Of a DNA stretch of 46,523 nucleotides, positions 6,913 through 42,600 are shown piece by piece. Each line of letters opens with the position of its first letter. The first letter of the stretch is position 1. The DNA lies in contig CAZUBJ010000002.1 in assembly GCA_964618705.1 (NCBI GenBank), positions 1-46,523 on the forward strand, given 5' to 3'. This stretch comes from an uncultured Candidatus Saccharibacteria bacterium. Its GTDB lineage: Bacteria; Patescibacteriota; Minisyncoccia; Phycocordibacterales; Phycocordibacteraceae. The notes under the pieces are model-generated. The model saw only the letters and a program-made list of their open reading frames with translations, was not told the DNA's origin and searched no databases. A program made the translations under genes and the position numbers.

Positions 6913-7830
6913 ATGGACGCAAGCCAAATGAAGCGGGAATTTCTCGAATATATTGAGATTGAGCGCGGTCGCGCGGTCAAAACGGTTGAAAACTACGACC
7001 ACTACCTCTCCCGCTACTTTGAGCAGATGAAAATAGTGAGTGTTTCCGACATTTCAGAGCAAAATATTCGTGAATTCAGGCTCTGGCTGAATCGCCAGCC
7101 GGGCACGGGGCGCGACTCTATGAAGCGCCGCACTCAGAATTACTACCTTATTGCGCTTCGCGCGTTCCTGAAGTTCCTGCGAAAGCGCGGCATTGAGAGT
7201 CTGTCCCCCGAGCGCATAGAGTTGGCAAAAGTCCCCGAGCGCCACTTGGACCTTATAAACGCTAGTGAATTGGCGCGTCTGATGAAGGCCCCAATGGATG
7301 CGTATGCTGCTGAAGAAGACGAGGGAAAGAAAGCAGCTTACTTGCGGGACTCTGCAATACTTGAGCTTCTCTTCTCGACGGGGCTTCGCGTATCCGAACT
7401 TTGTGCGCTTAATGTGGACATAGATCTCTCTCGTGACGAAGTGTCGGTGCGTGGAAAGGGCGACAAGGTGCGTGTGGTCTTTCTCTCAGACGCGAGCAAG
7501 GAAGCCATTCGTGCGTATCTAAAGGCCAGAAAAGATATGGAGGAGGCGTTATTTGTAGACGGCCGCCCCACTTCCCTTCATCGCATAACCCCACGCGACA
7601 TTCAGCGTCACTTAAAGAAGTACACCGCTCGCGCGGGTATCACCAGTAAAGTCTCTCCCCATACCCTACGCCACGTATTTGCTACTGATTTGCTCCAAAA
7701 CGGCGCAGATATTCGCTCGGTACAGGCGCTTTTGGGCCACGCCAGCATCAATACCACCCAGATTTACACGCACGTGACTGACGCGCATCTGCGCGAGGTC
7801 CACAAGAAGTTCCACTCCAAGAATCGCTGA
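6913..7830 (+). CDS. tyrosine site-specific recombinase, XerC/XerD family
   Basis: N-terminal SAM-like domain (FLEYIEIERGRAVKTVENYDHYL). Catalytic region GLRVSELCAL ... HTLRHVFATDLLQNGADIRSVQALLGHASINTTQIYTHV, containing the R..HxxR..Y signature. Confidence 0.85.
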   Translation: MDASQMKREFLEYIEIERGRAVKTVENYDHYLSRYFEQMKIVSVSDISEQNIREFRLWLNRQPGTGRDSMKRRTQNYYLIALRAFLKFLRKRGIESLSPERIELAKVPERHLDLINASELARLMKAPMDAYAAEEDEGKKAAYLRDSAILELLFSTGLRVSELCALNVDIDLSRDEVSVRGKGDKVRVVFLSDASKEAIRAYLKARKDMEEALFVDGRPTSLHRITPRDIQRHLKKYTARAGITSKVSPHTLRHVFATDLLQNGADIRSVQALLGHASINTTQIYTHVTDAHLREVHKKFHSKNR

Positions 7831-12336: not shown

Positions 12337-12411
12337 GCGCCCGTAGCTCAATGGATCGAGCACTTGTCTTCGGAACAAGGGATGGGGGTTCGATTCCCTC
12401 CGGGCGCACCA
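12337..12411 (+). tRNA. tRNA-Arg (anticodon TCG), CCA encoded
   Basis: Hand fold: acceptor GCGCCCG/CGGGCGC, D stem GCTC/GAGC, anticodon stem CTTGT/ACAAG with loop CTTCGGA, T arm GGGGG-TTCGATT-CCCTC, then ACCA. Confidence 0.9.
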
Positions 12412-13680: not shown

Positions 13681-13751
13681 GCGGATATGGTTTAGTGGTA
13701 AAACGAGTCCTTGCCAAGGATTAGTCGGGAGTTCGATTCTCCCTATCCGCA
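13681..13751 (+). tRNA. tRNA-Gly (anticodon GCC), no encoded CCA
   Basis: Acceptor GCGGATA/TATCCGC, D stem GTTT/AAAC, anticodon stem AGTCC/GGATT with loop TTGCCAA, T arm GGGAG-TTCGATT-CTCCC, discriminator A. Confidence 0.9.
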
Positions 13752-14020
13752 CCCGAGCAGCAAAAGAACGCCAAAGGGCGTTCTTTTGCATTTATGCTCG
13801 GGTGCGGATAGAGCACGGTGTGGGATACCGTGCGTGGAGAATCGAAAGCCGGAAGCGCGACGGCGCCGAGGCGGGGTCGCGCAAAATCCCAGCAGGGATT
13901 TATGTGTGACCGATGCGTGACAGCGACTCTTCGAGCGAAGCGAGTTAGAGAAGCGGAACTTCTCCCTATCTCCGAACCAGGGGGACGAAAGTGGTAATCG
14001 CCGGTTCTCCCTCAAATCCT
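13752..14020 (+). repeat. tRNA-3'-end-linked element, copy behind tRNA-Gly(GCC); two tandem modules
   Basis: 16-bp perfect inverted repeat at 13744-13759 / 13795-13810. Inverted T-arm copy GGAGAATCGAA at 13836-13846. 31-nt and 44-nt blocks are shared with the 16261-16500 copy. A decayed direct copy of the tRNA 3' end lies at 13960-13977. A tail AAAGTGGTAATC..TTCTCC is shared with the tRNA-Pro copy. Confidence 0.7.
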
Positions 14021-14166
14021 CCATGTTCATAAGTGGGGACAAAGGTGTTAATAGTGGGGACAACTTTATAGGACAAGTGCCGTGTCTTTAGCGCTTGTCT
14101 GCAAAATAGTGAGTGTTTATATGCTTTTTCTCTCAGTCTGCCTATTGGTCTTGTATACTGAGGACT

Positions 14167-14624: not shown

Positions 14625-14699
14625 TGCACCGACGCACCCCGTTCGCTCGGCGAAACACCAAATATACGCTCCGCGTGCATTTGGTGTTTGCCTCACTCA
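14625..14699. repeat. CT-rich REP-like intergenic repeat, copy 3
   Basis: cgttcgctcggcg-AAACACCAAAT…ATTTGGTGTTT-gcctcactcac, with the same flank words as the other copies. Confidence 0.45.
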
Positions 14700-14770
14700 C
14701 GGGGTGTCGTATACCGGTAGTACGCTACTTTTGGGAAGTAGATGACGGAGTTCAATTCTCCGCACCCCGA
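14700..14770 (+). tRNA. tRNA-Pro (anticodon TGG), no encoded CCA
   Basis: Acceptor CGGGGTG/CACCCCG, D stem GTAT/GTAC, anticodon stem CTACT/AGTAG with loop TTTGGGA (G37), T arm CGGAG-TTCAATT-CTCCG, discriminator A. Confidence 0.85.
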
Positions 14771-14961
14771 CTACTTTTGAACGCAGTGAAAAATAGACGG
14801 GTGCAGCACTGTGTCTGCACACAGTGCGTGGAGAATTGAATGGCGGAACCTTATTTCAGTCAGCAGACTGAAATGGTGAGCCGGGCTCGCGAGCATTGTG
14901 AGTGACGACGAACAATGACTTGTGAGCAAAAGTGGTAATCCACGTTTCTCCGCACCCCGAC
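14771..14961 (+). repeat. tRNA-3'-end-linked element, copy behind tRNA-Pro
   Basis: Inverted acceptor copy at 14794-14804. Inverted T-arm copy GGAGAATTGAA at 14830-14840. Perfect 16-nt direct repeat TTCTCCGCACCCCGAC at 14756-14771 and 14946-14961. Confidence 0.7.
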
Positions 14962-14986
14962 AAATTTGTGCGAAGCAGTAGAAACA

Positions 14987-15019
14987 CAAAAGCCGCCCGA
15001 AAGGGCGGCTTTTGTTTTT
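14987..15019. terminator. bidirectional terminator
   Basis: CAAAAGCCGCCC-gaaa-GGGCGGCTTTTG followed by TTTTT. Confidence 0.85.
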
Positions 15020-16186: not shown

Positions 16187-16260
16187 GCGGGATTAGTTTA
16201 ATGGTAGAACTACAGTTTTCCAAACTGTTAGCAGGAGTTCGATTCTCCTATCCCGCACCA
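16187..16260 (+). tRNA. tRNA-Gly (anticodon TCC), CCA encoded
   Basis: Acceptor GCGGGAT/ATCCCGC, D stem GTTT/GAAC, anticodon stem ACAGT/ACTGT with loop TTTCCAA, T arm AGGAG-TTCGATT-CTCCT, then ACCA. Confidence 0.85.
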
Positions 16261-16500
16261 AAATCACGACGAGGACGCGGAGCGTGCGAGGACTATATTT
16301 TGGGCTGGGATAGGAGAATCGAAAGCCGGAAGCGCGACGGCGCTGAGCGGGCGTAGATTTCGTTGCGAGCCTGCGAGCTAGGAAATCAAGTGCAGAGCTT
16401 CGCGCAAAATCCCAGCAGGGATTTATGTGCGACCGATGCGTGACCAAATATTCTTATGAGCGCAGCGAATTAGAATATGGGAACTTCTCCTATCCCGCAC
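16261..16500 (+). repeat. tRNA-3'-end-linked element, copy behind tRNA-Gly(UCC)
   Basis: Perfect 17-nt inverted copy of the tRNA T-loop-to-acceptor segment (GGGATAGGAGAATCGAA, 16307-16323). Perfect 16-nt direct repeat TTCTCCTATCCCGCAC at 16243-16258 and 16485-16500. Blocks 16313-16343 and 16401-16444 are near-identical to 13836-13866 and 13878-13921. Confidence 0.75.
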
Positions 16501-28891: not shown

Positions 28892-28918
28892 ACGTGCGAA
28901 CGCGATGCGTTCGCACGT
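28892..28918. promoter_or_regulatory. perfect 12-bp-arm palindrome abutting the pilB -10 box
   Basis: ACGTGCGAACGC-gat-GCGTTCGCACGT, immediately followed by TATACT (28919-28924), 20 nt before the pilB ATG. Confidence 0.5.
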
Positions 28919-28943
28919 TATACTTTCAATACGAACTTTTTAC

Positions 28944-30695
28944 ATGCAAGTATCTGAAAGCGAACTAAAAGAATTCATTCTTGATTCGGGACTCGTCTCC
29001 CGGAAGGAAGTTGAAGCTGCTGCAGAGGAAGGGAAGCAGCGTAAGCAATCAGTAGGAGACATCCTTGTTTCAAACGGACAACTTTCACAGGATGCGCTTC
29101 GTCGCATTAAGGCGTACGTGCTTGGTATTCCTTTTGTAAACTTGAAGGACCGAAAGATTCCACTTGAAGTGCTGTCACTCATTCCAGAACCAATTGCGCG
29201 CACGCACAGCATTGTTGCCTTTCGTAAGGGTGACAAGGAGCTTGAAGTGGCGATGCTTGATACTGAGGACCTTCCCGCTATTGATTCGGTGCGAAAGACC
29301 ACCGGTCTCACCATTCTGCCGCGCCTGACTGACGATGACTCGCTCAAACACACACTGTTGCAGTATCAAAAGTCGCTCAAGGAAGAATTCGGAGATTTGA
29401 TTGCTACCGAGTCTGGCCGCATCAACCTTATTAAGGATTCAGATGGAAAGGAGGTGACTGGAGAGGACCTCAAGAAAATGGCAGAAGATCTGCCGATTGT
29501 GCGCATCGTGGACACGCTCCTTCGCCATGCAATTATCCAGAGCGCATCCGATATTCATATTGAGCAGCTCGAGGACCAGGTGCTTGTACGCTATCGCATC
29601 GATGGCATTTTGCATGATGCAATGACACTGCCCAAGGATGCGGGGCCAGGCATTATTGCGCGCATCAAGGTGCTGTCATCTCTAAAGCTCGACGAGAAGC
29701 GTCTACCACAGGACGGCCGATTCAAAATGGAATCTGATGGCGACAAGGTGTCGTTCCGTGTCTCCATGCTCCCAACCTACTACGGGGAAAAGATTGTTAT
29801 GCGCTTGCTGCGCGAGACGGGTGAGGGCTTCTCACTGGAGACGCTTGGCTTCCACGGAGAGACCATGGAGCGCATTCATAAAGCGATGAAGCAAACAACG
29901 GGAATCATTCTCGTCTCTGGTCCTACCGGTTCTGGAAAAACCACCACGCTCTATACCATACTCGATATTTTGAACACGCCGGACGTAAACATCTCGACCG
30001 TAGAGGACCCGATTGAGTATCAGATGAAGCGCGTGAACCAAACACAAGTAAATCCAGCCATTGGGTTTACCTTTGCCCAAGGGTTGCGCTCGCTGCTTCG
30101 TCAGGATCCAAACATTATTATGGTGGGAGAGATTCGTGATAGTGAGACTGCGTCCCTTGCCATTAATGCGGCCCTCACCGGACACGTCGTACTCTCCACC
30201 ATTCACACCAACTCAGCCGCCGGCGCCATTCCGCGTCTCATTGATATGGGAGTGGAGCCGTTCCTGCTCGTATCAACACTTCGTCTCATTGTTGGACAGC
30301 GTTTGGTGCGCAGACTCTGCGATGGCAAGGAAGAGTACATTCCAGATAAGGTGGAGCGAGAGAAAGTGGCGAGCGAGGATCACTTTACTGCGGCGCTCGG
30401 CTCCCTTACAGAAGAAAAATTGATAAAGGCCGGTACTAAACTTGCCGACTTGCCGTTCTACCATCCAAAACCCTCAGCCGAGTGCGAAGAAGGGTACAAG
30501 AGTCGTATTGGTATCCATGAGATTCTCACCGTGTCGCCAACCATTCGTGATTTGATACTCCACAACGCATCTCCTGATGCTATCGAGGCGCAGGCTCGTA
30601 AGGAAGGTATGCTCACCATGCTCGACGACGGTATTTACAAAGCGGCGCGCGGCATCACCAGTCTTGAGGAGGTGCTCCGCGCAGTGACTGAGTAG
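28944..30695 (+). CDS. pilB: type IV pilus assembly ATPase (PilB/GspE family)
   Basis: N-terminal GSPII-type domain, Walker A GPTGSGKTTT, Asp box, Walker B IIMVGEIRD, His box STIHTN. ATG at 28944. Confidence 0.9.
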   Translation: MQVSESELKEFILDSGLVSRKEVEAAAEEGKQRKQSVGDILVSNGQLSQDALRRIKAYVLGIPFVNLKDRKIPLEVLSLIPEPIARTHSIVAFRKGDKELEVAMLDTEDLPAIDSVRKTTGLTILPRLTDDDSLKHTLLQYQKSLKEEFGDLIATESGRINLIKDSDGKEVTGEDLKKMAEDLPIVRIVDTLLRHAIIQSASDIHIEQLEDQVLVRYRIDGILHDAMTLPKDAGPGIIARIKVLSSLKLDEKRLPQDGRFKMESDGDKVSFRVSMLPTYYGEKIVMRLLRETGEGFSLETLGFHGETMERIHKAMKQTTGIILVSGPTGSGKTTTLYTILDILNTPDVNISTVEDPIEYQMKRVNQTQVNPAIGFTFAQGLRSLLRQDPNIIMVGEIRDSETASLAINAALTGHVVLSTIHTNSAAGAIPRLIDMGVEPFLLVSTLRLIVGQRLVRRLCDGKEEYIPDKVEREKVASEDHFTAALGSLTEEKLIKAGTKLADLPFYHPKPSAECEEGYKSRIGIHEILTVSPTIRDLILHNASPDAIEAQARKEGMLTMLDDGIYKAARGITSLEEVLRAVTE

Positions 30696-30789
30696 CACTG
30701 GCGCGCTCGCTCGCTCGGGTGTATACCTCTACGCAGAGCCGCAGTATCAAACGGACTATCTGTTTGGGTGTGGCATTGGAGGAACCTAC

Positions 30790-31095
30790 ATGTTCTGGAC
30801 ACTTCTGGCGATGAGTATCGCTGCCGTGCTGGCACTGTTTGCTGGTGCCTGCTTCGGGTTTGACCCACTCCTGGTGGGCGCGGTCGCGTTCTCTATCGCG
30901 TTTCTTCTCGGCTTTCAGGAGTCGGAGCGGGACGCGCTTCTTGCTTGGGGCGCTGGCTTCAGTCTCATCGCGTTCATCTTCTCGCGCATCCCACAGCTCT
31001 GGCCACTGTTCGAGTTTGTGGCGTCCGCCATCCTCGGTGTCGCGGTCGCGCTTCTCGTGACGGCCGCGGTCGACTGGGCGCGGACACGGGCATGA
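30790..31095 (+). CDS. GC-rich small multi-pass membrane protein, function unknown
   Basis: GGAGG lies 7 nt before the ATG. Three or four hydrophobic helices. The opposite-strand 157-aa ORF is judged a shadow. Confidence 0.5.
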   Translation: MFWTLLAMSIAAVLALFAGACFGFDPLLVGAVAFSIAFLLGFQESERDALLAWGAGFSLIAFIFSRIPQLWPLFEFVASAILGVAVALLVTAAVDWARTRA

Positions 31096-31213
31096 CACTA
31101 GCTGCCCCCTCTTGGGCCGGACTTCCACACGGAGGTTCGGCCCAAAGCTGTATCTAAATTAGAAATCGCCCGAACCATAGGAACGGGACGATTCCCGTTT
31201 TCAGTTCAGGCGA

Positions 31214-31528
31214 TTAGAGGCGTGCTCCTATTTGTCGCAGCCACTCAGCATCAAGCGCATGTAAGTCGTCCTCGTTTCTGTTGCCATTCTTGCGCTCGGC
31301 CTCCAGTCCATATTTCCAGAGAAGCCGGTAATTGGTTAATTGCTGCGAACAGTGCAGCTGCAGTTCTGCCAAGGCGTTCTGTCTGCCGCCAAAAACTTTC
31401 ACGACAATCATCCGCATAGGATTCTTGGCAGATAGAATGTCCCAGGACATCAAGGTACTCACCCATTCCGGGTGGGTGACATCCAGGACCTTGATGCAGT
31501 GTCCTACTCGTTCCGCGATCGCATTCAT
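31214..31528 (-). CDS. hypothetical protein (104 aa)
   Basis: ORF only; no motif recognised. It is inserted antisense between pilB and pilC. Confidence 0.35.
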   Translation of the reverse strand: MNAIAERVGHCIKVLDVTHPEWVSTLMSWDILSAKNPMRMIVVKVFGGRQNALAELQLHCSQQLTNYRLLWKYGLEAERKNGNRNEDDLHALDAEWLRQIGARL

Positions 31529-31622
31529 GGTTGTGGCCCTTCGCCGTTACACTTCGGAAGTCTGCTACGAATATGCGCTCGCGCGCACCGAACGTCAATA
31601 AGCGCATGCTACGATACCAGTA

Positions 31623-32828
31623 ATGAAATTTCGTGTATCAGTACAAACGAAAGATGGTGCAAAAGAGAAGCGAATCATAGATGCCGAGAATCGCTTTTCG
31701 GTATATTCGCAACTGGAGGCTGAAGGAGTGACAGTACTTGAAGTTGTGGAAGCAAAGGACCCGAAGAAAGCTGGAGGTATTACATTTGGAACAGGCATCA
31801 AGACCGAGGAGAAGATTACGTTCACCAAGAATCTCTCCGCTATGCTCTCGGCGGGCCTTACACTGTCCCGCGCGCTTTCCGTTATTGAGCGACAGTCAAA
31901 GAACAAGTATCTAAAGGCGGTGGTAGCAAGCATCGAAGAGAAAATTAAAACAGGTGGCTCGTTCCACGAGGCGCTCATGATGCATCAGAAGGTGTTCCCA
32001 GAGCTCTTTATTGCGATGGCGAAGGCGGGAGAAGAATCAGGAACCCTTGCAGAATCACTTAAGTCTATCGCTAAGCAGATGGACCGATCGTTCACGCTCC
32101 AGAAGAAAGTGAAAGGAGCGATGATCTACCCAAGCATCATTCTCTCGGCGATTGTTGTGATTGGTGTGCTCATGCTTATGTTCGTGGTGCCAACACTGTC
32201 TGCCACGTTTGAATCCTTGGGTGTCGAGCTACCAATGGCCACCAAGGTCATCATTGGCATTTCAAACTTCCTCGCTGAAAACGTCATTATTTCCTTGCTG
32301 CTCCTTGCTGGTTTCTTTGCAGGAATCTATGCGTTCACGCATTCCCGATTCGGTGCTGCGCTTATTCTCCAGATAGCACTTCGTATTCCGGTGATTGGGG
32401 ATTTGGTACGAGAGACGATGGGTGCTCGCGCAGCACGCGCGCTTTCTTCACTTCTTTCCTCGGGCGTGGAAATGCTCACTGCTATAAAAATTGCAGGGGA
32501 AGTAGTAGGAAAGAATGTATTTGGAGTAGTGCTCACCGAGGCAGAAGAGCGTGTGCGTAAAGGAGAAGCGCTCTCAGCAACCTTTAACAAGTATCCCGAT
32601 TTGTTTCCGGCGTTTTTCACGGACATGATTTTAGTAGGTGAGGAAACAGGAAAGGTGTCCGACATGTTGGGACAGGTTGCTGAATACTATGAAACCGATG
32701 TTGAAGATAGAACCAAAGATCTCTCAACTATTATTGAGCCACTTTTGATGCTTTTCATTGGAGTCTTTGTGGGAGTGTTTGCGATTTCGATGATTACACC
32801 AATCTACTCGCTTTCTTCAAAAATATAG
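31623..32828 (+). CDS. pilC: type IV pilus platform protein (PilC/GspF family)
   Basis: Two T2SSF repeats (LSAMLSAGLTLSRALSVI…; LSSLLSSGVEMLTAIKIAG…) and three TM segments. Confidence 0.9.
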   Translation: MKFRVSVQTKDGAKEKRIIDAENRFSVYSQLEAEGVTVLEVVEAKDPKKAGGITFGTGIKTEEKITFTKNLSAMLSAGLTLSRALSVIERQSKNKYLKAVVASIEEKIKTGGSFHEALMMHQKVFPELFIAMAKAGEESGTLAESLKSIAKQMDRSFTLQKKVKGAMIYPSIILSAIVVIGVLMLMFVVPTLSATFESLGVELPMATKVIIGISNFLAENVIISLLLLAGFFAGIYAFTHSRFGAALILQIALRIPVIGDLVRETMGARAARALSSLLSSGVEMLTAIKIAGEVVGKNVFGVVLTEAEERVRKGEALSATFNKYPDLFPAFFTDMILVGEETGKVSDMLGQVAEYYETDVEDRTKDLSTIIEPLLMLFIGVFVGVFAISMITPIYSLSSKI

Positions 32829-38953: not shown

Positions 38954-40678
38954 ATGTTCACGCTCCATGACGTCATAGATGAATCGATTCGCAAGGAGCT
39001 ATCTTCCTACGACGACCTCACCGCCTCGCTTCTAGCGCGTCGTGGTGTGGTAACGGGCGAAGAAGCCGTGGCGTTTCTTAATCCTTCGTACGAGGAGCAC
39101 ATCCACGACCCTTTTTTGATGCAGGACATGGCTAAGGCTGCGTCCCGTGTTGCAGAGGCAATCAACAATCAAGAGCGAATCACGGTCTGGAGCGACTACG
39201 ATTGTGACGGTATTCCCGGAGGCTCTCTGTTACATGATTTTTTTAAAAAAGCCGGAGCAAACTTTACAAACTATATTCCGCACCGTCACCTGGAAGGGTA
39301 TGGCGTAAACGTAGGTGGAATAGAGAAACTCGCACAAGAAGGAACGACGCTCATCGTTACGGTTGATTCGGGTATTACCGATGTTGAAGCGGTTCTACGT
39401 GCACGTGAGCTTGGGATTGATGTGATTGTGACTGACCATCACCTTCCGCAAGATGGTTTGCCGGACGCGTTTGCCATCTTGAATCCGAACGCGCGTGAAG
39501 ATGAGACGTATCCGTACAAGTCGCTCTGTGGTGCGGGGGTTGCGTGGAAGCTGGTGTGTGCCGTCCTTGCGCACGGTTTTGCGGGGCGCGAGCTTATTCC
39601 GCCCGGCTGGGAGAAATGGCTTCTTGATTTGGCAGGGCTCGCAACAATTGCTGATATGGTGCCGCTTACGGGAGAGAATCGTGTGATTGCAAAGTATGGG
39701 CTCCTAGTGATGCGAAAGTCACCACGCATTGGTTTCCAGAAACTGTGCGCGGTTGCTCGGGTGAATCAGCGATTTATAACCGAGGACGATGTCGGCTTCA
39801 TGATAGCGCCCCGAATTAATGCAGCGAGCCGCATGGGAAATCCGCGCGACGCGTTCGTACTTCTCACCACCACGAGCGAAGATGAGGCAACGGAACTCGC
39901 GCGAACACTTGAGGCAGTGAATCGTTCGCGCAAAGCTGCGGCAGGTGCCATTACAAAAAGTGTCCACGCGCGCTTGGAGCGACTGCGTGAAGCCGAGGGA
40001 GACATTCCGTCGGTTATTGTGATGGGCGATCCAGAATGGCGACCAGGACTACTTGGGTTAGTTGCAAGTGGTATCGCAGACGAATACGAGCGCCCTGTTT
40101 TTTTATGGGGACGCGAAGGAAATGAATCACTCAAGGGTTCGTGTCGTGGGGGTCCAGAGCATGTCCATGTTGTGGAGTTGATGCAAGCGGCAGCACCAGA
40201 GACATTTGCGGGTTTTGGAGGACACGCTGCTGCGGGCGGATTCTCCGTTCTTCCGGAGGCGGTATTCGATTTGCCACAGCGGCTTGTGGAAGCGCGGGCA
40301 CATCTGTTGTCGAGCGAAGGCGCCACTGATACGCGCGCAGACTTGGTGCTTGCTCCAAGCGATATTACACACGCACTATTGAAGCAACTGGATATGCTCG
40401 CTCCGTTTGGTATGGGCAACCCAAAGCCAACCGTGTCTTTGCAGAATGTTCATATTGAACGAATCGCGTGGTTTGGAAAATCGTCTGAGCACCTGCGCGT
40501 GCACCTGAAGCGCGAGGAAGGTTCGCTTGAAGCGATTGCGTTTTTTGCGAGGCGCGATCTTGGAAAGGCTCCCGACAGACTTTCGCCAGGAAGCGAAGTG
40601 CACGTGCTCGCGTATGTCGAGCGCGACCAATTCTCGCGCGGTCAGCCCGTGCGACTTCGACTGCTCGGCATTCGCTAA
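38954..40678 (+). CDS. recJ: single-stranded-DNA-specific exonuclease RecJ
   Basis: DHH motifs (VWSDYDCDGI, VTVDSGI, VIVTDHH) and DHHA1 (GGHAAAGGFS). Confidence 0.88.
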   Translation: MFTLHDVIDESIRKELSSYDDLTASLLARRGVVTGEEAVAFLNPSYEEHIHDPFLMQDMAKAASRVAEAINNQERITVWSDYDCDGIPGGSLLHDFFKKAGANFTNYIPHRHLEGYGVNVGGIEKLAQEGTTLIVTVDSGITDVEAVLRARELGIDVIVTDHHLPQDGLPDAFAILNPNAREDETYPYKSLCGAGVAWKLVCAVLAHGFAGRELIPPGWEKWLLDLAGLATIADMVPLTGENRVIAKYGLLVMRKSPRIGFQKLCAVARVNQRFITEDDVGFMIAPRINAASRMGNPRDAFVLLTTTSEDEATELARTLEAVNRSRKAAAGAITKSVHARLERLREAEGDIPSVIVMGDPEWRPGLLGLVASGIADEYERPVFLWGREGNESLKGSCRGGPEHVHVVELMQAAAPETFAGFGGHAAAGGFSVLPEAVFDLPQRLVEARAHLLSSEGATDTRADLVLAPSDITHALLKQLDMLAPFGMGNPKPTVSLQNVHIERIAWFGKSSEHLRVHLKREEGSLEAIAFFARRDLGKAPDRLSPGSEVHVLAYVERDQFSRGQPVRLRLLGIR

Positions 40679-40699
40679 AGCCCAGGTATACTATTCTCC

Positions 40700-41116
40700 A
40701 TGCATTTCATTCTCTACGCCGATGGAGGTTCGCGCGGTAACCCAGGTCCTGCTGGCGCTGGTGCGCTGGTGCGGGACGAGGAGGGAACTCAAGTGGTGAC
40801 AGTCTCTGAATACCTTGGTATTGCCACCAACAATATCGCTGAGTACACTGCGGTCCTTCGCGCGCTTGAAGGACTGCATGCGCTGCTTGGAACTGGCAGC
40901 AGTAGTGCCACTGTAGAAGCACGACTTGATAGTCAGCTTGTCGTGCGTCAGATGAATGGCGAGTACAAGATCAAGCATCCAAATATTATTCCGCTTGCGG
41001 GGAAGGTGAAGGAGGTCGGTCGCAACTTTAAGTCGCTGACTTTTACGCATGTGTATAGAGAAGACAATACGGAAGCGGATGCACTTGCCAATGAGGCGAT
41101 GGACCGAGGCCGCTAG
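40700..41116 (+). CDS. rnhA: ribonuclease HI-type protein
   Basis: LYADGGSRGNPGPAGAG, TNNIAEYTAVLRALE, REDNTEADALANEAMD; the DEDD catalytic pattern. Confidence 0.85.
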   Translation: MHFILYADGGSRGNPGPAGAGALVRDEEGTQVVTVSEYLGIATNNIAEYTAVLRALEGLHALLGTGSSSATVEARLDSQLVVRQMNGEYKIKHPNIIPLAGKVKEVGRNFKSLTFTHVYREDNTEADALANEAMDRGR

Positions 41117-41121
41117 GGCGC

Positions 41122-42600
41122 ATGACCAAGAACATTCTTCTTGCGGGAGGAATCGGACTAGTGAGCGGCATTGCATGCCGCTCACTTTTTGCTTTTGACT
41201 GGCACTTGCTTGCGGTCGGTGCCGTGCTTGCGCTTGTGCTTTTGAGTGCGGGCTCTCTCTATCGCACACGTCTGTACATGCTCGCGGCAATCTTTCTTGC
41301 GTGTGCTGTTCTAGGGTCGTGGCGCATGATACTTGCCGAGCATTCGATACCGCAGGTGTTCCTAAAAGACGTGGCGAGTACCGTTTCATACGAAGGGGTG
41401 GTGGTGGCCGATCCTGATATTCGTGAGACTTCGCAGCGTGTCACTGTTGCGGTACGGAATGAAGACAAGCAGGTGCGGGTGCTTGCCGTGACACCGCTGT
41501 ACCCGGCTCTTTCATACGGAGACCGAGTGCGCATAGCAGGAGAGCTCGCGTATCCAGAGCCGTTCGCAACACTCGGCGGGCGTGTGTTTGATTATCCTGC
41601 ATATCTTCGCAAAGATGACATCCTGCTCTTAGTGCCTCAAGCAGAGGTAGAACTACTCGATGTATCAGTGCCACGGAGTATGTACTTGCTGCGCGCACTC
41701 TTCGATGCGCGCAAAGCTTTTGCAGGTGGTGTGGCACGTGCCATCCCAGAACCAGCGGCGTCGCTTGCCATGGGTATGCTCGTTGGTGGGAAGCAGGGTC
41801 TCGGGAAAGAACTGCTCGAAGCGTTCACGCTCTCAGGTCTTCTGCCAATTGTGGTGCTGTCCGGGTACAACGTCATGATTGTTGCGGAGGCAGTGATGCG
41901 CCTATGTGTGCTCGCTCCCAAACGATTCGGTACGTGGGCTGCGGTGCTCGCAGTCGTGCTGTTTGTGCTGGCTTCCGGCGCAGGTGCTTCTGCAGTTCGC
42001 GCGGGGACTATGGCGTGCATCGCGCTGTTCGCGCGTGCCACAGGACGTGTCTACGATGCGTTGCGCATCTTGCTCGCCGTGTTCGTGTTGATGGTTGTTT
42101 GGAATCCATACCTCCTCCTGCATGATCCTGGGTTTCAGTTTTCGTTCGCAGCAACGCTCGGCATTATCGTAGGGACACCCATCGTTTCCAATTGGTTGAG
42201 CAAGATACCAAGCACGATGCTTAAGGAAATCTGTGCCACGACCATTGCAGCGCAGCTTTTTGTCTTACCGCTTCTGCTGTACGAGACCGGGATGCTGTCA
42301 CTGGTCGCAGTGCCAGCAAATGTACTTGCGCTTCCGCTCGTGCCACTTGCGATGCTTCTCTCATTTGTTGCAGGAGTCATCGGACTTCTTGCTCCTGTAG
42401 TGGCACCCATTGCCGGACTTCCTGCATATCTCGTGCTCGCACTCGTCATCAAAATTGCAACAGTGAGTGCAAGTCTTCCACTTGCTGCACACACTCTTCC
42501 GCAGTTTCCATTCCTGATTACTGTTCTCTTGTATGGGTCACTTGCGCTACTTGTTTGGAAGTATAAAAAAACTACCCCACGCCCAAGAGGCGTGGGGTAG
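41122..42600 (+). CDS. comEC: ComEC/Rec2 DNA-uptake channel (DUF4131 plus Competence domain only; no beta-lactamase domain)
   Basis: About 10 TM helices and an OB-like N-terminal part (YEGVVVADPDIRETSQRVTVAV…). Competence-domain features are AASLAMGMLVGGK and GLLPIVVLSGYNV. Confidence 0.8.
   Translation: MTKNILLAGGIGLVSGIACRSLFAFDWHLLAVGAVLALVLLSAGSLYRTRLYMLAAIFLACAVLGSWRMILAEHSIPQVFLKDVASTVSYEGVVVADPDIRETSQRVTVAVRNEDKQVRVLAVTPLYPALSYGDRVRIAGELAYPEPFATLGGRVFDYPAYLRKDDILLLVPQAEVELLDVSVPRSMYLLRALFDARKAFAGGVARAIPEPAASLAMGMLVGGKQGLGKELLEAFTLSGLLPIVVLSGYNVMIVAEAVMRLCVLAPKRFGTWAAVLAVVLFVLASGAGASAVRAGTMACIALFARATGRVYDALRILLAVFVLMVVWNPYLLLHDPGFQFSFAATLGIIVGTPIVSNWLSKIPSTMLKEICATTIAAQLFVLPLLLYETGMLSLVAVPANVLALPLVPLAMLLSFVAGVIGLLAPVVAPIAGLPAYLVLALVIKIATVSASLPLAAHTLPQFPFLITVLLYGSLALLVWKYKKTTPRPRGVG

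What the first reader, a model, noticed from the sequence alone, without database searches (positions are those of the whole stretch)
14700..14961. The same element architecture sits behind tRNA-Pro(UGG), and its repeats co-vary with the tRNA sequence
- tRNA-Pro has a TTCAATT T-loop, whereas the Gly tRNAs have TTCGATT.
- The downstream inverted copy here reads GGAGAATTGAA (14830-14840), the complement of TTCAATTCTCC. It therefore tracks the Pro-specific base.
- The distal direct repeat TTCTCCGCACCCCGAC (14946-14961) is a perfect copy of 14756-14771.
- That repeat starts at the same tRNA position (59) as in the tRNA-Gly(UCC) case.
- A nearer imperfect inverted copy of the acceptor 3' strand (TAGACGGGTGC, 14794-14804) can pair with the tRNA 3' end.
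- The element's tail AAAGTGGTAATCCACGTTTCTCC resembles the tail at 13989-14010 behind tRNA-Gly(GCC).
- The same register in unrelated tRNAs, with tRNA-specific sequence, argues for a targeted recombination or templated process rather than chance.
Basis: seen in the sequence. Interest (0 to 1): 0.75.

Follow-up and report, generated by a model that had tools for sequence, protein, structure and literature searches.

The report
tRNA-tail-matched structured RNA cassette family
Behind tRNA-Pro sits one copy of a previously uncatalogued family of small protein-less cassettes, found behind many kinds of tRNA genes (and two tmRNA genes) in Patescibacteria (CPR bacteria), that fold into a conserved RNA junction whose closing helix is built from a duplicated tRNA tail.

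Summary
It is one member of a large family. A search pattern that contains no tRNA-specific sequence found more than 120 metagenome loci. After upstream tRNAs were called, 109 of 137 usable matches lay 18-177 nt behind a same-strand tRNA, covering 35 anticodons; two more follow tmRNA genes. In the genome collection, all but one (weak) model match lay in records named as Patescibacteria or left unclassified.

The cassette core is a three-way junction (P3/P4/P5) with strong covariation and an invariant G.U pair on the tRNA strand. No Rfam family matches it.

P3's 3' strand is a copy of tRNA nt 56-74/76, and its 5' strand is the complement. About a third of members also carry an acceptor complement followed by a 24-nt hairpin. 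That base pairing explains the "co-variation".

In this window's sublineage, a UAAU hairpin splits the copy between nt 58 and 59, so the repeat appears to start at 59.

Relatives show filled, decayed and empty tRNA-Pro sites, arrays and swapped cores. The cassette therefore behaves as an insertion. No recombinase lies inside it. How it moves and what the RNA does remain unknown.

The parts
14700..14771 (+). tRNA-Pro(UGG), complete, with T-loop TTCAATT and no encoded CCA. Nt 59-74 (14756-14771) form the proximal copy of the repeat.
   Evidence: ARAGORN; Rfam tRNA model, 54.7 bits; repeat D8.
14772..14795 (+). Spacer, an imperfect palindrome (TACTTTT ... AAAAATA). Together with the tRNA tail and the complement that follows, it can form a long hairpin ('hairpin A').
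   Evidence: Sequence. The fold of tRNA plus cassette pairs the tRNA 3' half with 14796-14840. The spacer is 26/26 identical in distant relative L229 and is retained alone in L231.
14796..14804 (+). b' = P1 5' strand. It is an imperfect complement of the acceptor 3' strand.
   Evidence: In the fold, 14799-14804 pairs with 14952-14957. Family-wide, a complement of nt 66-73 is present at 7/8 or better in 35% of members against 3% for non-cognate pairings.
14806..14827 (+). P2 hairpin: a 9-bp stem with a CUGC loop, inserted at the position equivalent to the T-stem/acceptor boundary.
   Evidence: Fold. When b' is present, the gap between b' and a' is 25-26 nt in 30 of 36 members. The stem covaries by eye and the CUGC loop is conserved.
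14830..14840 (+). a' = P3 5' strand, GGAGAAUUG(AA). It is the complement of tRNA nt 54-64, including the Pro-specific A57.
   Evidence: I18. Family-wide, the 10 nt before GAAAG pair with the cognate tRNA nt 56-65 at 9-10 of 10 positions in 71 of 109 members.
14836..14929 (+). Conserved three-way-junction core. J3/4 is GAAU. P4 spans 14842-14882 (GGC/GCC, a GGA/GA internal loop and a hairpin with a CAGC loop). P5 spans 14885-14927. The core ends GUGAG|CAA, where CAA is a copy of tRNA nt 56-58.
   Evidence: Covariance model R1, 49.9 bits, E 3.9e-14. Covariation on alignment A2. Fold.
14932..14943 (+). Small hairpin GUGG-UAAU-CCAC. It is a sublineage-specific insertion that splits the distal tRNA-tail copy between nt 58 and 59.
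   Evidence: Fold. The same module, with a covarying stem, occurs in L009, L039, L224, L229 and L231 and at 13988-14004.
14946..14961 (+). Distal repeat, a copy of tRNA nt 59-74. It forms the 3' strands of P3 (14946-14951) and P1 (14952-14957). The flank after it is homologous to the tRNA-Pro trailer at the empty site.
   Evidence: D8; fold. L227 has the tRNA followed directly by AAATGTGTGCGAAG, matching window 14962-14975.
14986..15015 (.). Bidirectional intrinsic-terminator-like hairpin that closes the tRNA-Pro plus cassette unit. No terminator-like site lies between the tRNA and the cassette.
13754..14013 (+). Sister cassette behind tRNA-Gly(GCC). A 17-nt perfect inverted repeat (13743-13759 / 13795-13811) flanks a terminator hairpin. 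P2 is at 13812-13834 and the core at 13834-13929. A degenerate repeat lies at 13960-13970, followed by a second tail plus repeat at 13988-14013.
   Evidence: I3, I12, D6, D7; R1 60.7 bits. L227, L229 and L230 lack it.
16261..16500 (+). Sister cassette behind tRNA-Gly(UCC). A 27-nt inverted copy lies at 16297-16323 with no P2. The core carries a roughly 45-nt extra insert. The distal repeat is at 16485-16500.
   Evidence: I1, D2, D3, D5; R1 17.2 bits, interrupted.

Best explanation
**What it is.** The feature is one copy of a Patescibacteria-wide family of protein-less cassettes, with repeat periods of 115-378 nt (mostly 130-210; 190 here). They sit at the 3' end of tRNA genes and, in two loci, tmRNA genes.

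**Structure (shown).** On the tRNA strand each cassette specifies a conserved three-way-junction RNA (P3/P4/P5).
- The 3' strand of the closing helix P3 is a duplicate of the tRNA gene's nt 56 to 74-76.
- The 5' strand is an internal complement (a').
- In about a third of members, a' is preceded by an acceptor complement (b') and a 24-nt hairpin (P2). This gives a tRNA-like connectivity: acceptor-like helix, body hairpin, T-like helix, then a large domain where the T-loop would be.

**Why the repeats track the tRNA (shown).** One helix strand is the duplicated tRNA tail, and the other stays complementary to it and to the tRNA itself.

**Transcription (inferred).** No terminator-like site lies between tRNA-Pro and the cassette, so the two are probably co-transcribed. 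Transcription would end at the hairpin at 14986-15015.

**Behaviour in evolution (shown).** The cassette behaves as an insertion.
- Related genomes have it filled, decayed or cleanly absent, with one repeat copy left at the empty site.
- Cassettes stack in arrays.
- Cores are exchanged between tRNA loci and between genomes.

**Most likely mechanism (inferred).** It is a non-autonomous integrative cassette. It would enter and leave by recombination within the nt 56-74 repeat, in the way islands and prophages use tRNA tails, catalysed by a function encoded elsewhere. The conserved RNA would serve either the cassette's propagation and processing or a host role that is dispensable at any one locus.
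For: **Family and tRNA linkage**
- The core pattern used for the search contains no tRNA-specific sequence. After upstream tRNAs were called, 109 of 137 usable matches lay 18-177 nt behind a same-strand tRNA, covering 35 anticodons.
- Most matches with no called tRNA were second units of arrays, tmRNA genes, or chance hits in coding DNA.
- The cognate tail copy is present at 12 nt or more in 70% of cases, against 0.9% for non-cognate pairings.
- a' is complementary to the cognate nt 56-65.
- The repeat starts at C56 in 35 of 53 and ends at 74-76 in 39 of 53.
- b' is present in 35% against 3% for controls, with a fixed 25-26-nt gap to a'.

**Structure**
- 93.6% of cells are paired, against 31-44% when partners are slid. 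18 of 25 pairs show double changes. The covariation score is 0.59, against 0.09-0.11.
- One G.U pair is kept in 33 of 34 sequences, which marks the tRNA strand.
- The Pro cassette folds as predicted at -80.2 kcal/mol, z = -8.3. The opposite strand folds less well.
- Model R1 hits only the three tRNA-linked sites in the 46.5-kb window.
- Among genome loci, 41 of 42 hits lie in records named as Patescibacteria or left unclassified (L009, L070). The exception is a weak 19.5-bit hit in L023.

**Insertion behaviour at tRNA-Pro**
- L223 (98% relative) has the identical cassette plus an extra 115-nt unit bounded by GCACCCCGAC.
- L224 lacks the 85-nt core.
- L231 keeps only the spacer.
- L232, L230 and L227 are empty, and the window's distal flank matches the empty-site trailer.
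- L229 is the closest fetched relative of L227 (78-88% nt identity) and is filled. Its left module is 91% identical to the window's, and its a' does not match its own T-loop.

**Other evidence**
- Two 98%-identical units sit behind tRNA-Gly(UCC) and tRNA-Gly(GCC) on one Vogelbacteria contig, each with locus-specific repeats.
- Arrays occur in L003, L018, L103 and L136.
- No terminator-like site lies between tRNA-Pro and the cassette.
Against: - No recombinase, transposase or reverse transcriptase lies in or consistently next to the cassettes. The only candidate in the window is a Xer-like tyrosine recombinase about 7 kb away.
- One recombinase serving more than 35 different tRNA tails is not how known tRNA-targeting integrases behave.
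- A simple conservative crossover does not explain why both repeat copies are locus-specific in the Vogelbacteria pair.
- Left ends share no conserved terminal motif.
- All the indel evidence could also come from deletion between the repeats plus gene conversion among cores, without any new insertion.
- Neither transcription nor excision has been observed.
- The literature could not be searched, because the tool failed on every attempt.
Confidence: 0.5

Rival explanations
1. It is a host RNA gene rather than a mobile element. On this reading, a tRNA-trailer-derived, tRNA-like structured RNA is co-transcribed with the tRNA and matured by tRNA-processing enzymes: RNase P at the P1 5' end, and RNase Z or the CCA-adding enzyme after the discriminator. 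It is inherited vertically. Its cores are homogenised within genomes by gene conversion, and it is lost by deletion between the 19-nt repeats.
For: - Unpaired nucleotides are invariant and one G.U pair is conserved across distant Patescibacteria lineages.
- The connectivity is tRNA-like, with P2 at the acceptor/T boundary.
- The 3' strand ends at the discriminator or CCA position.
- The Pro cassette is probably co-transcribed with its tRNA.
- Cores are more alike within a genome than their flanks are.
- a' stays complementary to the tRNA even where the distal strand differs (confounded by indels).
Against: - Many copies are visibly decaying: the core deletion in L224, the spacer-only remnant in L231, and the degenerate repeat and nested tails at 13960-14013.
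- Only about 13% of the other tRNA genes in cassette-bearing loci have one by the strict pattern, which is a lower bound.
- L227, L228, L230 and L232 have no copy in the region fetched; L227 and L230 cover all four tRNAs there.
- L229 carries an a' of foreign type.
- Other, unrelated cores use the same scaffold.
Confidence: 0.25
2. It is a guide-directed, target-duplicating mobile cassette. The internal a'/b' segments recognise nt 56-74 of a tRNA or tmRNA gene by base pairing, as RNA or as a folded single strand. Insertion duplicates exactly that segment. The conserved junction next to GUGAC|C56 is the catalytic centre or the docking site for a recombinase.
For: - Cassette-internal sequence covaries with flanking target sequence across 35 anticodons. 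This is the kind of signature, from my own knowledge, that led to group II intron EBS/IBS pairing and to IS110 bridge RNAs.
- The duplication register is tight: 56 to 74-76.
- Both repeat copies are target-type in the Vogelbacteria pair, which shares nt 56-65.
- In six loci the distal copy alone continues with CA (completing a CCA-like end) while the proximal copy stops at 74, as expected for insertion at 74|75. The reverse pattern was seen in two related loci.
- In the fold, the junction strands abut both would-be joining sites.
Against: - There is no known precedent for a 19-21-nt duplication set by a guide.
- No partner enzyme was found.
- There is no match to any ribozyme family, even at relaxed thresholds.
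- The repeat end varies (74, 75 or 76 and beyond).
- b' is absent in most members.
- The L229 mismatch shows that pairing is not strictly required at position 57.
Confidence: 0.12
3. It is an intron-like insertion in the T-loop. The true gene would read tRNA nt 1-55, then an insert, then the distal nt 56-74. The insert would be removed by self-splicing or by cleavage and ligation. The proximal tail copy would be a built-in back-up that keeps the tRNA functional without splicing.
For: - The minimum-free-energy fold of tRNA plus cassette pairs the tRNA 5' acceptor strand and T-stem 5' strand with the distal copy. It also folds the proximal tail onto a'/b', which places both would-be splice sites at one junction next to the conserved core.
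- The core ends exactly at C56.
Against: - In every case examined the proximal tRNA is complete and scores as a normal tRNA.
- In the window's sublineage the distal copy is interrupted by the UAAU hairpin. In the 'GAGAG' subtype it lacks nt 59-62, so no spliced tRNA could form.
- There is no resemblance to group I or group II introns.
- No locus was found in which only the distal tail is intact.
Confidence: 0.05
4. It is a leftover attL/attR scar of a large integrated prophage or island that has since been deleted, with no function of its own.
For: Direct repeats of a tRNA 3' tail starting in the T-loop are, from my own knowledge, the classic footprint of tyrosine-integrase elements. tmRNA genes are also used as targets.
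Against: - The interior is a conserved, covarying structure shared by hundreds of loci behind different tRNAs.
- Repeat periods cluster tightly: the smallest is 115 nt, and 50 of 53 are at most 212 nt.
- No gene remnants are present.
- No phage or viral contig carries the core.
Confidence: 0.03

Closest known systems
Integrative elements that target tRNA/tmRNA gene 3' ends (prophages, genomic islands, ICEs; the 'T-loop' sublocation class). Cited from my own knowledge.
   Same: The insert sits at the tRNA tail. It is flanked by a direct repeat running from the T-loop to the 3' end, the tRNA stays intact, tmRNA genes are also used, units stack in tandem, and one repeat copy remains at empty sites.
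   Different: The unit is only 115-378 nt (mostly 130-210) and has no integrase or any other ORF. One core family serves 35 different tRNA anticodons. The repeat is also one strand of a conserved RNA helix, with an internal complement.
Non-autonomous derivatives that use a recombinase encoded elsewhere (CIMEs of streptococcal ICEs; IMEX elements such as CTX-phi that exploit XerCD, including folded single-strand attP). Cited from my own knowledge.
   Same: There is no recombinase in cis. Two inverted copies of a host-target-like sequence can fold into a duplex that mimics the target. A Xer-like recombinase is present in the window.
   Different: The target is a tRNA tail, not dif. The conserved G.U pair points to RNA rather than DNA folding. 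No link to Xer has been shown.
Integron attC cassettes and CRISPR/casposon-type integration. Cited from my own knowledge.
   Same: Arrays of short units are each bounded by the same repeat next to a fixed anchor. The duplication is long, with a defined register. The site is an imperfect inverted repeat that folds.
   Different: There is no IntI or Cas1 nearby, the repeat is a tRNA tail, and the units carry a structured RNA rather than an ORF or a spacer.
Guide-target systems of mobile elements (group II intron EBS/IBS; IS110 bridge RNA; IS200/605 guide sequences). Cited from my own knowledge.
   Same: Element-internal sequence covaries with flanking target sequence.
   Different: No intron core, DEDD recombinase or HUH (Y1) transposase is present. 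The complementarity is 10-21 nt, and the target is duplicated.
tRNA-like RNAs (tmRNA tRNA-like domain, viral tRNA-like structures, mascRNA, bacterial YrlA) and functional tRNA-trailer RNAs (3'ETS-leuZ). Cited from my own knowledge.
   Same: An acceptor-like helix stacks on a T-like helix and ends at the discriminator. A body hairpin sits at the junction. The RNA is derived from the tRNA transcription unit.
   Different: The helix copies the neighbouring tRNA exactly. The large domain replaces the T-loop rather than the anticodon arm. The tRNA model does not recognise it.

Membership tests
tRNA-targeting integrative element (tyrosine-integrase type) | Insert flanked by direct repeats of the tRNA 3' part, with the tRNA gene left intact | tested here: met
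   14756-14771 = 14946-14961. Family-wide register is 56 to 74-76.
tRNA-targeting integrative element (tyrosine-integrase type) | Integrase gene carried inside the element | tested here: not met
   The 190-nt unit has no credible ORF. No recurrent recombinase lies near 144 loci. The nearest is a Xer-like gene at 6913-7827.
tRNA-targeting integrative element (tyrosine-integrase type) | Empty sites in relatives that carry a single repeat copy | tested here: met
   L227, L230 and L232 are empty, whereas the window, L223 and L229 are filled.
tRNA-targeting integrative element (tyrosine-integrase type) | Excised circular form, or attP junction | not testable with these tools
   This needs raw reads or an experiment.
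MITE (miniature inverted-repeat transposable element) | Element-specific terminal inverted repeats, a short fixed target duplication, and a related autonomous transposon | tested here: not met
   The inverted segments are target-specific, not element-specific. The duplication is 19-21 nt. No transposase was found.
Any Rfam 15 family (ribozymes, introns, riboswitches, tRNA-like RNAs) | Match to a curated covariance model | tested here: not met
   Only tRNA reached gathering score. Nothing relevant appeared at E<=5 in the window or E<=1 on canonical members.
tRNA / tRNA pseudogene | Cloverleaf recognised by tRNA finders | tested here: not met
   ARAGORN and RF00005 call only the four real tRNAs.
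tRNA-like structure (functional mimic) | Acceptor-like helix stacked on a T-like helix, with a 3' strand ending at the discriminator | tested here: met
   Fold. b'-P2-a' spacing. The repeat ends at 74-76.
tRNA-like structure (functional mimic) | Processing by RNase P or RNase Z, CCA addition, or aminoacylation | not testable with these tools
   This needs biochemistry or RNA end mapping.
IS110-type bridge-RNA element / group II intron | Adjacent DEDD recombinase, or intron domains with a reverse transcriptase | tested here: not met
   No such ORF and no Rfam intron match.
Phage or plasmid sequence | Core present on viral contigs | tested here: not met
   Two scans of viral contigs gave one chance hit inside coding-like sequence with no tRNA nearby, and zero hits. 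The plasmid and GenBank phage collections were not searched.

The most novel reading that the evidence does not exclude
R1 cassettes are a new kind of programmable mobile element with no protein encoded in cis. The structured RNA, or its folded single-stranded DNA, would read nt 56-74 of a tRNA or tmRNA gene through its a'/b' segments. The conserved three-way junction abutting GUGAC|C56 would catalyse or dock the joining reaction. Insertion would duplicate exactly the segment that was read. This would be a tRNA-tail-homing counterpart of reverse-splicing introns or bridge-RNA recombination.
Probability: 0.12. Interest if true: 0.95.

Novelty: new variant of a known kind. Interest (0 to 1): 0.78.

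Why it matters
- **An uncatalogued RNA family.** If confirmed, this adds a widespread and strongly conserved structured RNA family to Patescibacteria, whose non-coding repertoire is, to my knowledge, little explored. It shows that the downstream edges of their tRNA and tmRNA genes are active sites of small-cassette gain, loss and exchange.
- **A testable puzzle.** The RNA's closing helix is literally a copy of its neighbour's tRNA tail. That design could be an insertion footprint, a tRNA-mimicking processing handle, or a guide. Each possibility makes concrete predictions that can be checked with RNA end mapping, read-level junction searches and in vitro assays.
- **If it is guide-directed.** It would be a compact, naturally retargetable insertion system.
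- **Practical use now.** Model R1 can flag these units. That keeps partial tRNA copies from being mis-annotated as pseudogenes or prophage att sites.

Tried and rejected
- **Known RNA families.** Rfam was searched at gathering and at relaxed thresholds, on the window and on canonical members. It found only tRNAs and noise.
- **Viral contigs.** One chance hit and zero hits.
- **Partner enzyme.** ORFs within about 4 kb of 144 loci were clustered. Only housekeeping families recur. An HTH protein lies near the cassette or its tRNA in 8 loci, but it is absent from the window.
- **Large island.** Checked by looking for tRNA fragments elsewhere in the window; none were found.
- **"Templated from the local tRNA".** Rejected for the inverted copy because of the L229 mismatch.
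- **Fixed-length target duplication.** The repeat end is mostly 74, 75 or 76 but is not constant, so this test was inconclusive.
- **Simple single crossover.** It does not reproduce the Vogelbacteria pair.
- **Proximal versus distal pairing of a'.** The test favours the proximal tRNA but is confounded by indels.
- **First genome scan.** The 19-mer pattern returned about 70 chance loci in unrelated phyla. These served as negative controls for R1.
- **Literature.** The search tool failed on five well-formed queries, and one query was malformed. Novelty therefore rests on absence from Rfam 15 and on my own knowledge.
Full report
**1. Observation**

The region was read directly. ARAGORN and Rfam place four tRNAs in the window:

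| tRNA | Coordinates |
|---|---|
| Arg(UCG) | 12337-12411 |
| Gly(GCC) | 13681-13753 |
| Pro(UGG) | 14700-14771 |
| Gly(UCC) | 16187-16260 |

Every element of the finding is present:
- the inverted 11-mer at 14830-14840;
- the perfect 16-nt repeat at 14756-14771 and 14946-14961;
- the imperfect acceptor complement at 14794-14804;
- the shared tail (I18, D8, D7).

A 19-mer that spans the inverted T-loop copy and the sequence after it occurs three times in 46.5 kb. All three are behind tRNAs, against 0.06 expected by chance. tRNA-Arg has nothing comparable.

**2. It is a family, and it is tRNA-linked everywhere**

*First scan (genomes).* The 19-mer was scanned against one genome per species and returned 101 loci.
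- About 70 are chance hits in unrelated phyla.
- About 20 lie 30-80 nt behind a same-strand tRNA (Gly, Cys, Thr or Ala) in Yonath-, Kaiser-, Vogel-, Nomura- and Campbell-bacteria, Saccharibacteria, Paceibacterota and Minisyncoccia.

*Second scan (metagenomes).* This pattern contained only cassette-internal sequence (GAAAGSCGGAA...GAGSCGGGGYMG).
Of 137 matches not at a contig edge, 109 have a same-strand tRNA 18-177 nt upstream, covering 35 anticodons.
- The matches without a called tRNA are mostly second units of tandem arrays, tRNAs cut by contig ends, chance hits in coding DNA, or, in two loci, tmRNA genes.

*Matching to the cognate tRNA.*
- Downstream of the core there is an exact copy of at least 12 nt of the cognate tRNA tail in 70% of cases. 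The figure is 0.9% when tRNAs and cassettes are mismatched.
- The 10 nt before the core pair with the cognate tRNA nt 56-65 at 9-10 positions in 71 of 109 cases. Examples: Lys CGATCCCTAC / GTAGGGATCG and Trp CGAGTCCTGG / CCAGGACTCG.
- The repeat starts at C56 in 35 of 53 and ends at 74, 75 or 76 in 39 of 53.

**3. Anatomy**

An alignment of 34 canonical members (A2) supports a three-way junction.

| Helix | Description |
|---|---|
| P3 | The tRNA-derived closing helix |
| P4 | A 3-bp stem whose middle pair switches C-G/G-C (22:12, never broken), a GGAA/UGA internal loop and a variable hairpin |
| P5 | GGUCGCG...YGUGACC, with one G.U pair kept in 33 of 34 sequences |

- 93.6% of cells are paired, against 31-44% when partners are slid. 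18 of 25 pairs show double changes. The covariation score is 0.59, against about 0.1.
- The conserved G.U pair would be a C.A mismatch on the other strand. The structure therefore belongs to the tRNA strand and is most simply read as RNA.
- In 35% of members a complement of the acceptor 3' strand (b') lies upstream (3% for non-cognate controls). In 30 of 36 such members it sits exactly 25-26 nt before a'.
- That gap is a hairpin (P2) with a covarying stem and, usually, a CUGC loop.
- The resulting connectivity copies that of a tRNA: acceptor-like helix, body hairpin, T-like helix, and a large domain where the T-loop would be.

The Pro cassette (14792-14963) folds into exactly this arrangement at -80.2 kcal/mol (z = -8.3). 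The reverse strand is weaker. Covariance model R1, built from A2, finds only the three tRNA-linked copies in the window. Among the genome loci, all but one weak hit lie in records named as Patescibacteria or left unclassified. No Rfam family matches, even at relaxed thresholds on canonical members.

**4. Why the repeat starts at 59 here**

In the window's Saccharibacteria-type variant, the 3' strand reads GUGAG-CAA-AAG-[GUGG UAAU CCAC]-GU-UUCUCC.... A small hairpin is inserted between the copy of nt 56-58 and nt 59. The CAA at 14927-14929 is a third place that tracks the Pro-specific A57.

**5. Insertion behaviour**

Relatives were fetched through the neighbouring protease gene. At tRNA-Pro:

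| Relative | Protease identity | State of the tRNA-Pro site |
|---|---|---|
| L223 | 98% | Identical cassette plus an extra 115-nt unit of another type, bounded by GCACCCCGAC |
| L231 | 89% | Only the spacer remains |
| L224 | 85% | Lacks the 85-nt core |
| L232 | 75% | Empty |
| L230 | 65% | Empty |
| L227 | 61% | Empty; its trailer is homologous to the window's flank after the distal repeat |
| L229 | 61% | Filled |

- L229 is the closest fetched relative of L227, at 78-88% nt identity.
- L229's left module is 91% identical to the window's, including 26/26 in the spacer. Its inverted copy is the A57 type although its own tRNA has G57.
- L229's core is 86% identical to a tRNA-Gly(UCC) cassette core in L231.

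At tRNA-Gly(UCC), the window and L224 share the flanks but carry different cores, and synteny ends at the core boundary. On one Vogelbacteria contig, two 98%-identical units sit behind tRNA-Gly(UCC) and tRNA-Gly(GCC), and both repeat copies are locus-specific at nt 66-67.

Arrays and unrelated cores on the same scaffold occur in L003, L018, L103, L136, L201 and L223. In cassette-bearing loci, about 13% of the other tRNA genes also carry one by a strict pattern, which is a lower bound.

**6. Mechanism**

*What is shown:*
- a conserved, strand-specific structure;
- a closing helix made of a duplicated tRNA tail and its complement;
- a tight register;
- no terminator-like site between tRNA-Pro and its cassette, which makes co-transcription likely;
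- gain, loss and exchange among relatives.

*What is inferred:* how it moves and what the RNA does.

I favour a non-autonomous integrative cassette that recombines within the nt 56-74 repeat, using a function encoded elsewhere. That is the known logic for inserts in tRNA tails, and it fits the empty sites, the arrays and the use of tmRNA genes.

*Weaknesses of this view:*
- no recombinase is linked to the cassettes (the window's Xer-like gene is about 7 kb away);
- one core family serves 35 anticodons;
- the Vogelbacteria pair does not fit a simple crossover.

*Rival readings:*
- A vertically inherited tRNA-like RNA gene, with core homogenisation and repeat-mediated loss, explains the same data without mobility. 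It is the main rival.
- A guide-directed, target-duplicating element is the most novel reading that the evidence does not exclude.
- An intron-like reading is suggested by the fold of tRNA plus cassette. It is contradicted by the intact proximal tRNAs and the interrupted distal copies.
- A deleted-island scar is excluded by the covariation.

**7. Novelty**

The kind of object is known: an insert at a tRNA tail bounded by a tail repeat. What I could not find a catalogued or remembered precedent for is this combination:
- a size of a few hundred nt at most (repeat period mostly 130-210 nt), with no gene;
- a phylum-wide conserved RNA junction;
- a closing helix copied from the neighbouring tRNA;
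- tRNA-like connectivity.

The literature tool failed throughout, so prior description cannot be ruled out.

Noticed in passing
L118 3400-3780 and about 3850; L170 362-757: The same cassette type follows tmRNA (ssrA) genes. The requirement therefore seems to be a tRNA-like T-arm and acceptor tail, not a tRNA as such.
   Followed up: partly
L223 (reverse complement) 350-463; L018 after the first cassette; L003 second unit; L201 between tRNA-Asp and the R1 unit: Short units with cores unrelated to R1 use the same scaffold, each ending in a copy of the tRNA tail. The 115-nt unit in L223 is absent from the 98%-related window and is bounded by a 10-nt repeat, GCACCCCGAC.
   Followed up: partly
L223 / L224, between the tRNA-Pro terminator and the protease gene (L224 11111-12641): A three-gene insertion of about 1.8 kb (106 aa; 92 or 177 aa; and a 247-aa protein with a TrmB-like HTH) is present in two relatives. 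It is absent from the window and from L227, L229, L230, L231 and L232.
   Followed up: partly
window 6913-7827 (+): A 305-aa Xer-like tyrosine recombinase (Phage_integrase plus an N-terminal SAM-like domain) lies about 4.5 kb upstream of the tRNA cluster (about 7 kb from tRNA-Pro). Its neighbourhood differs from the syntenic region of L224.
   Followed up: no
window 14032-14063, with equivalents in L224, L227, L229 and L230: Two copies of AGTGGGGACAA lie upstream of the UPF0102 (YraN-like) gene. The GGGGA(C/T)AA boxes are conserved in relatives whether or not a cassette is present, which suggests an operator or promoter element.
   Followed up: no
window 16331 onward, compared with L224: Synteny between the window and its 85% relative ends at the core boundary of the tRNA-Gly(UCC) cassette (GGAGAATCGAAAG|). 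In L224 a solitary b'-P2-a' half-unit is followed by unrelated sequence.
   Followed up: partly
L070 5579-6317 and homologues in L059, L173, L127, L113, L039, L211 and L183: A protein of about 240 aa with an N-terminal HTH and a YWGEGDK motif recurs in 8 cassette-bearing loci, in several of them immediately beside the cassette or its tRNA. It is absent from the window.
   Followed up: partly
window 28905-32825 and 38954-42597: Type IV pilus assembly genes (PilB- and PilC-like), RecJ and ComEC are present. This gene set is the kind associated with natural DNA uptake, which could supply foreign cassettes.
   Followed up: no
window 14653-14689: A 17-bp hairpin (AAACACCAAATATACGC / GCGTGCATTTGGTGTTT) lies immediately upstream of tRNA-Pro. 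No promoter-like site was found there by the sigma-70 consensus scan.
   Followed up: no
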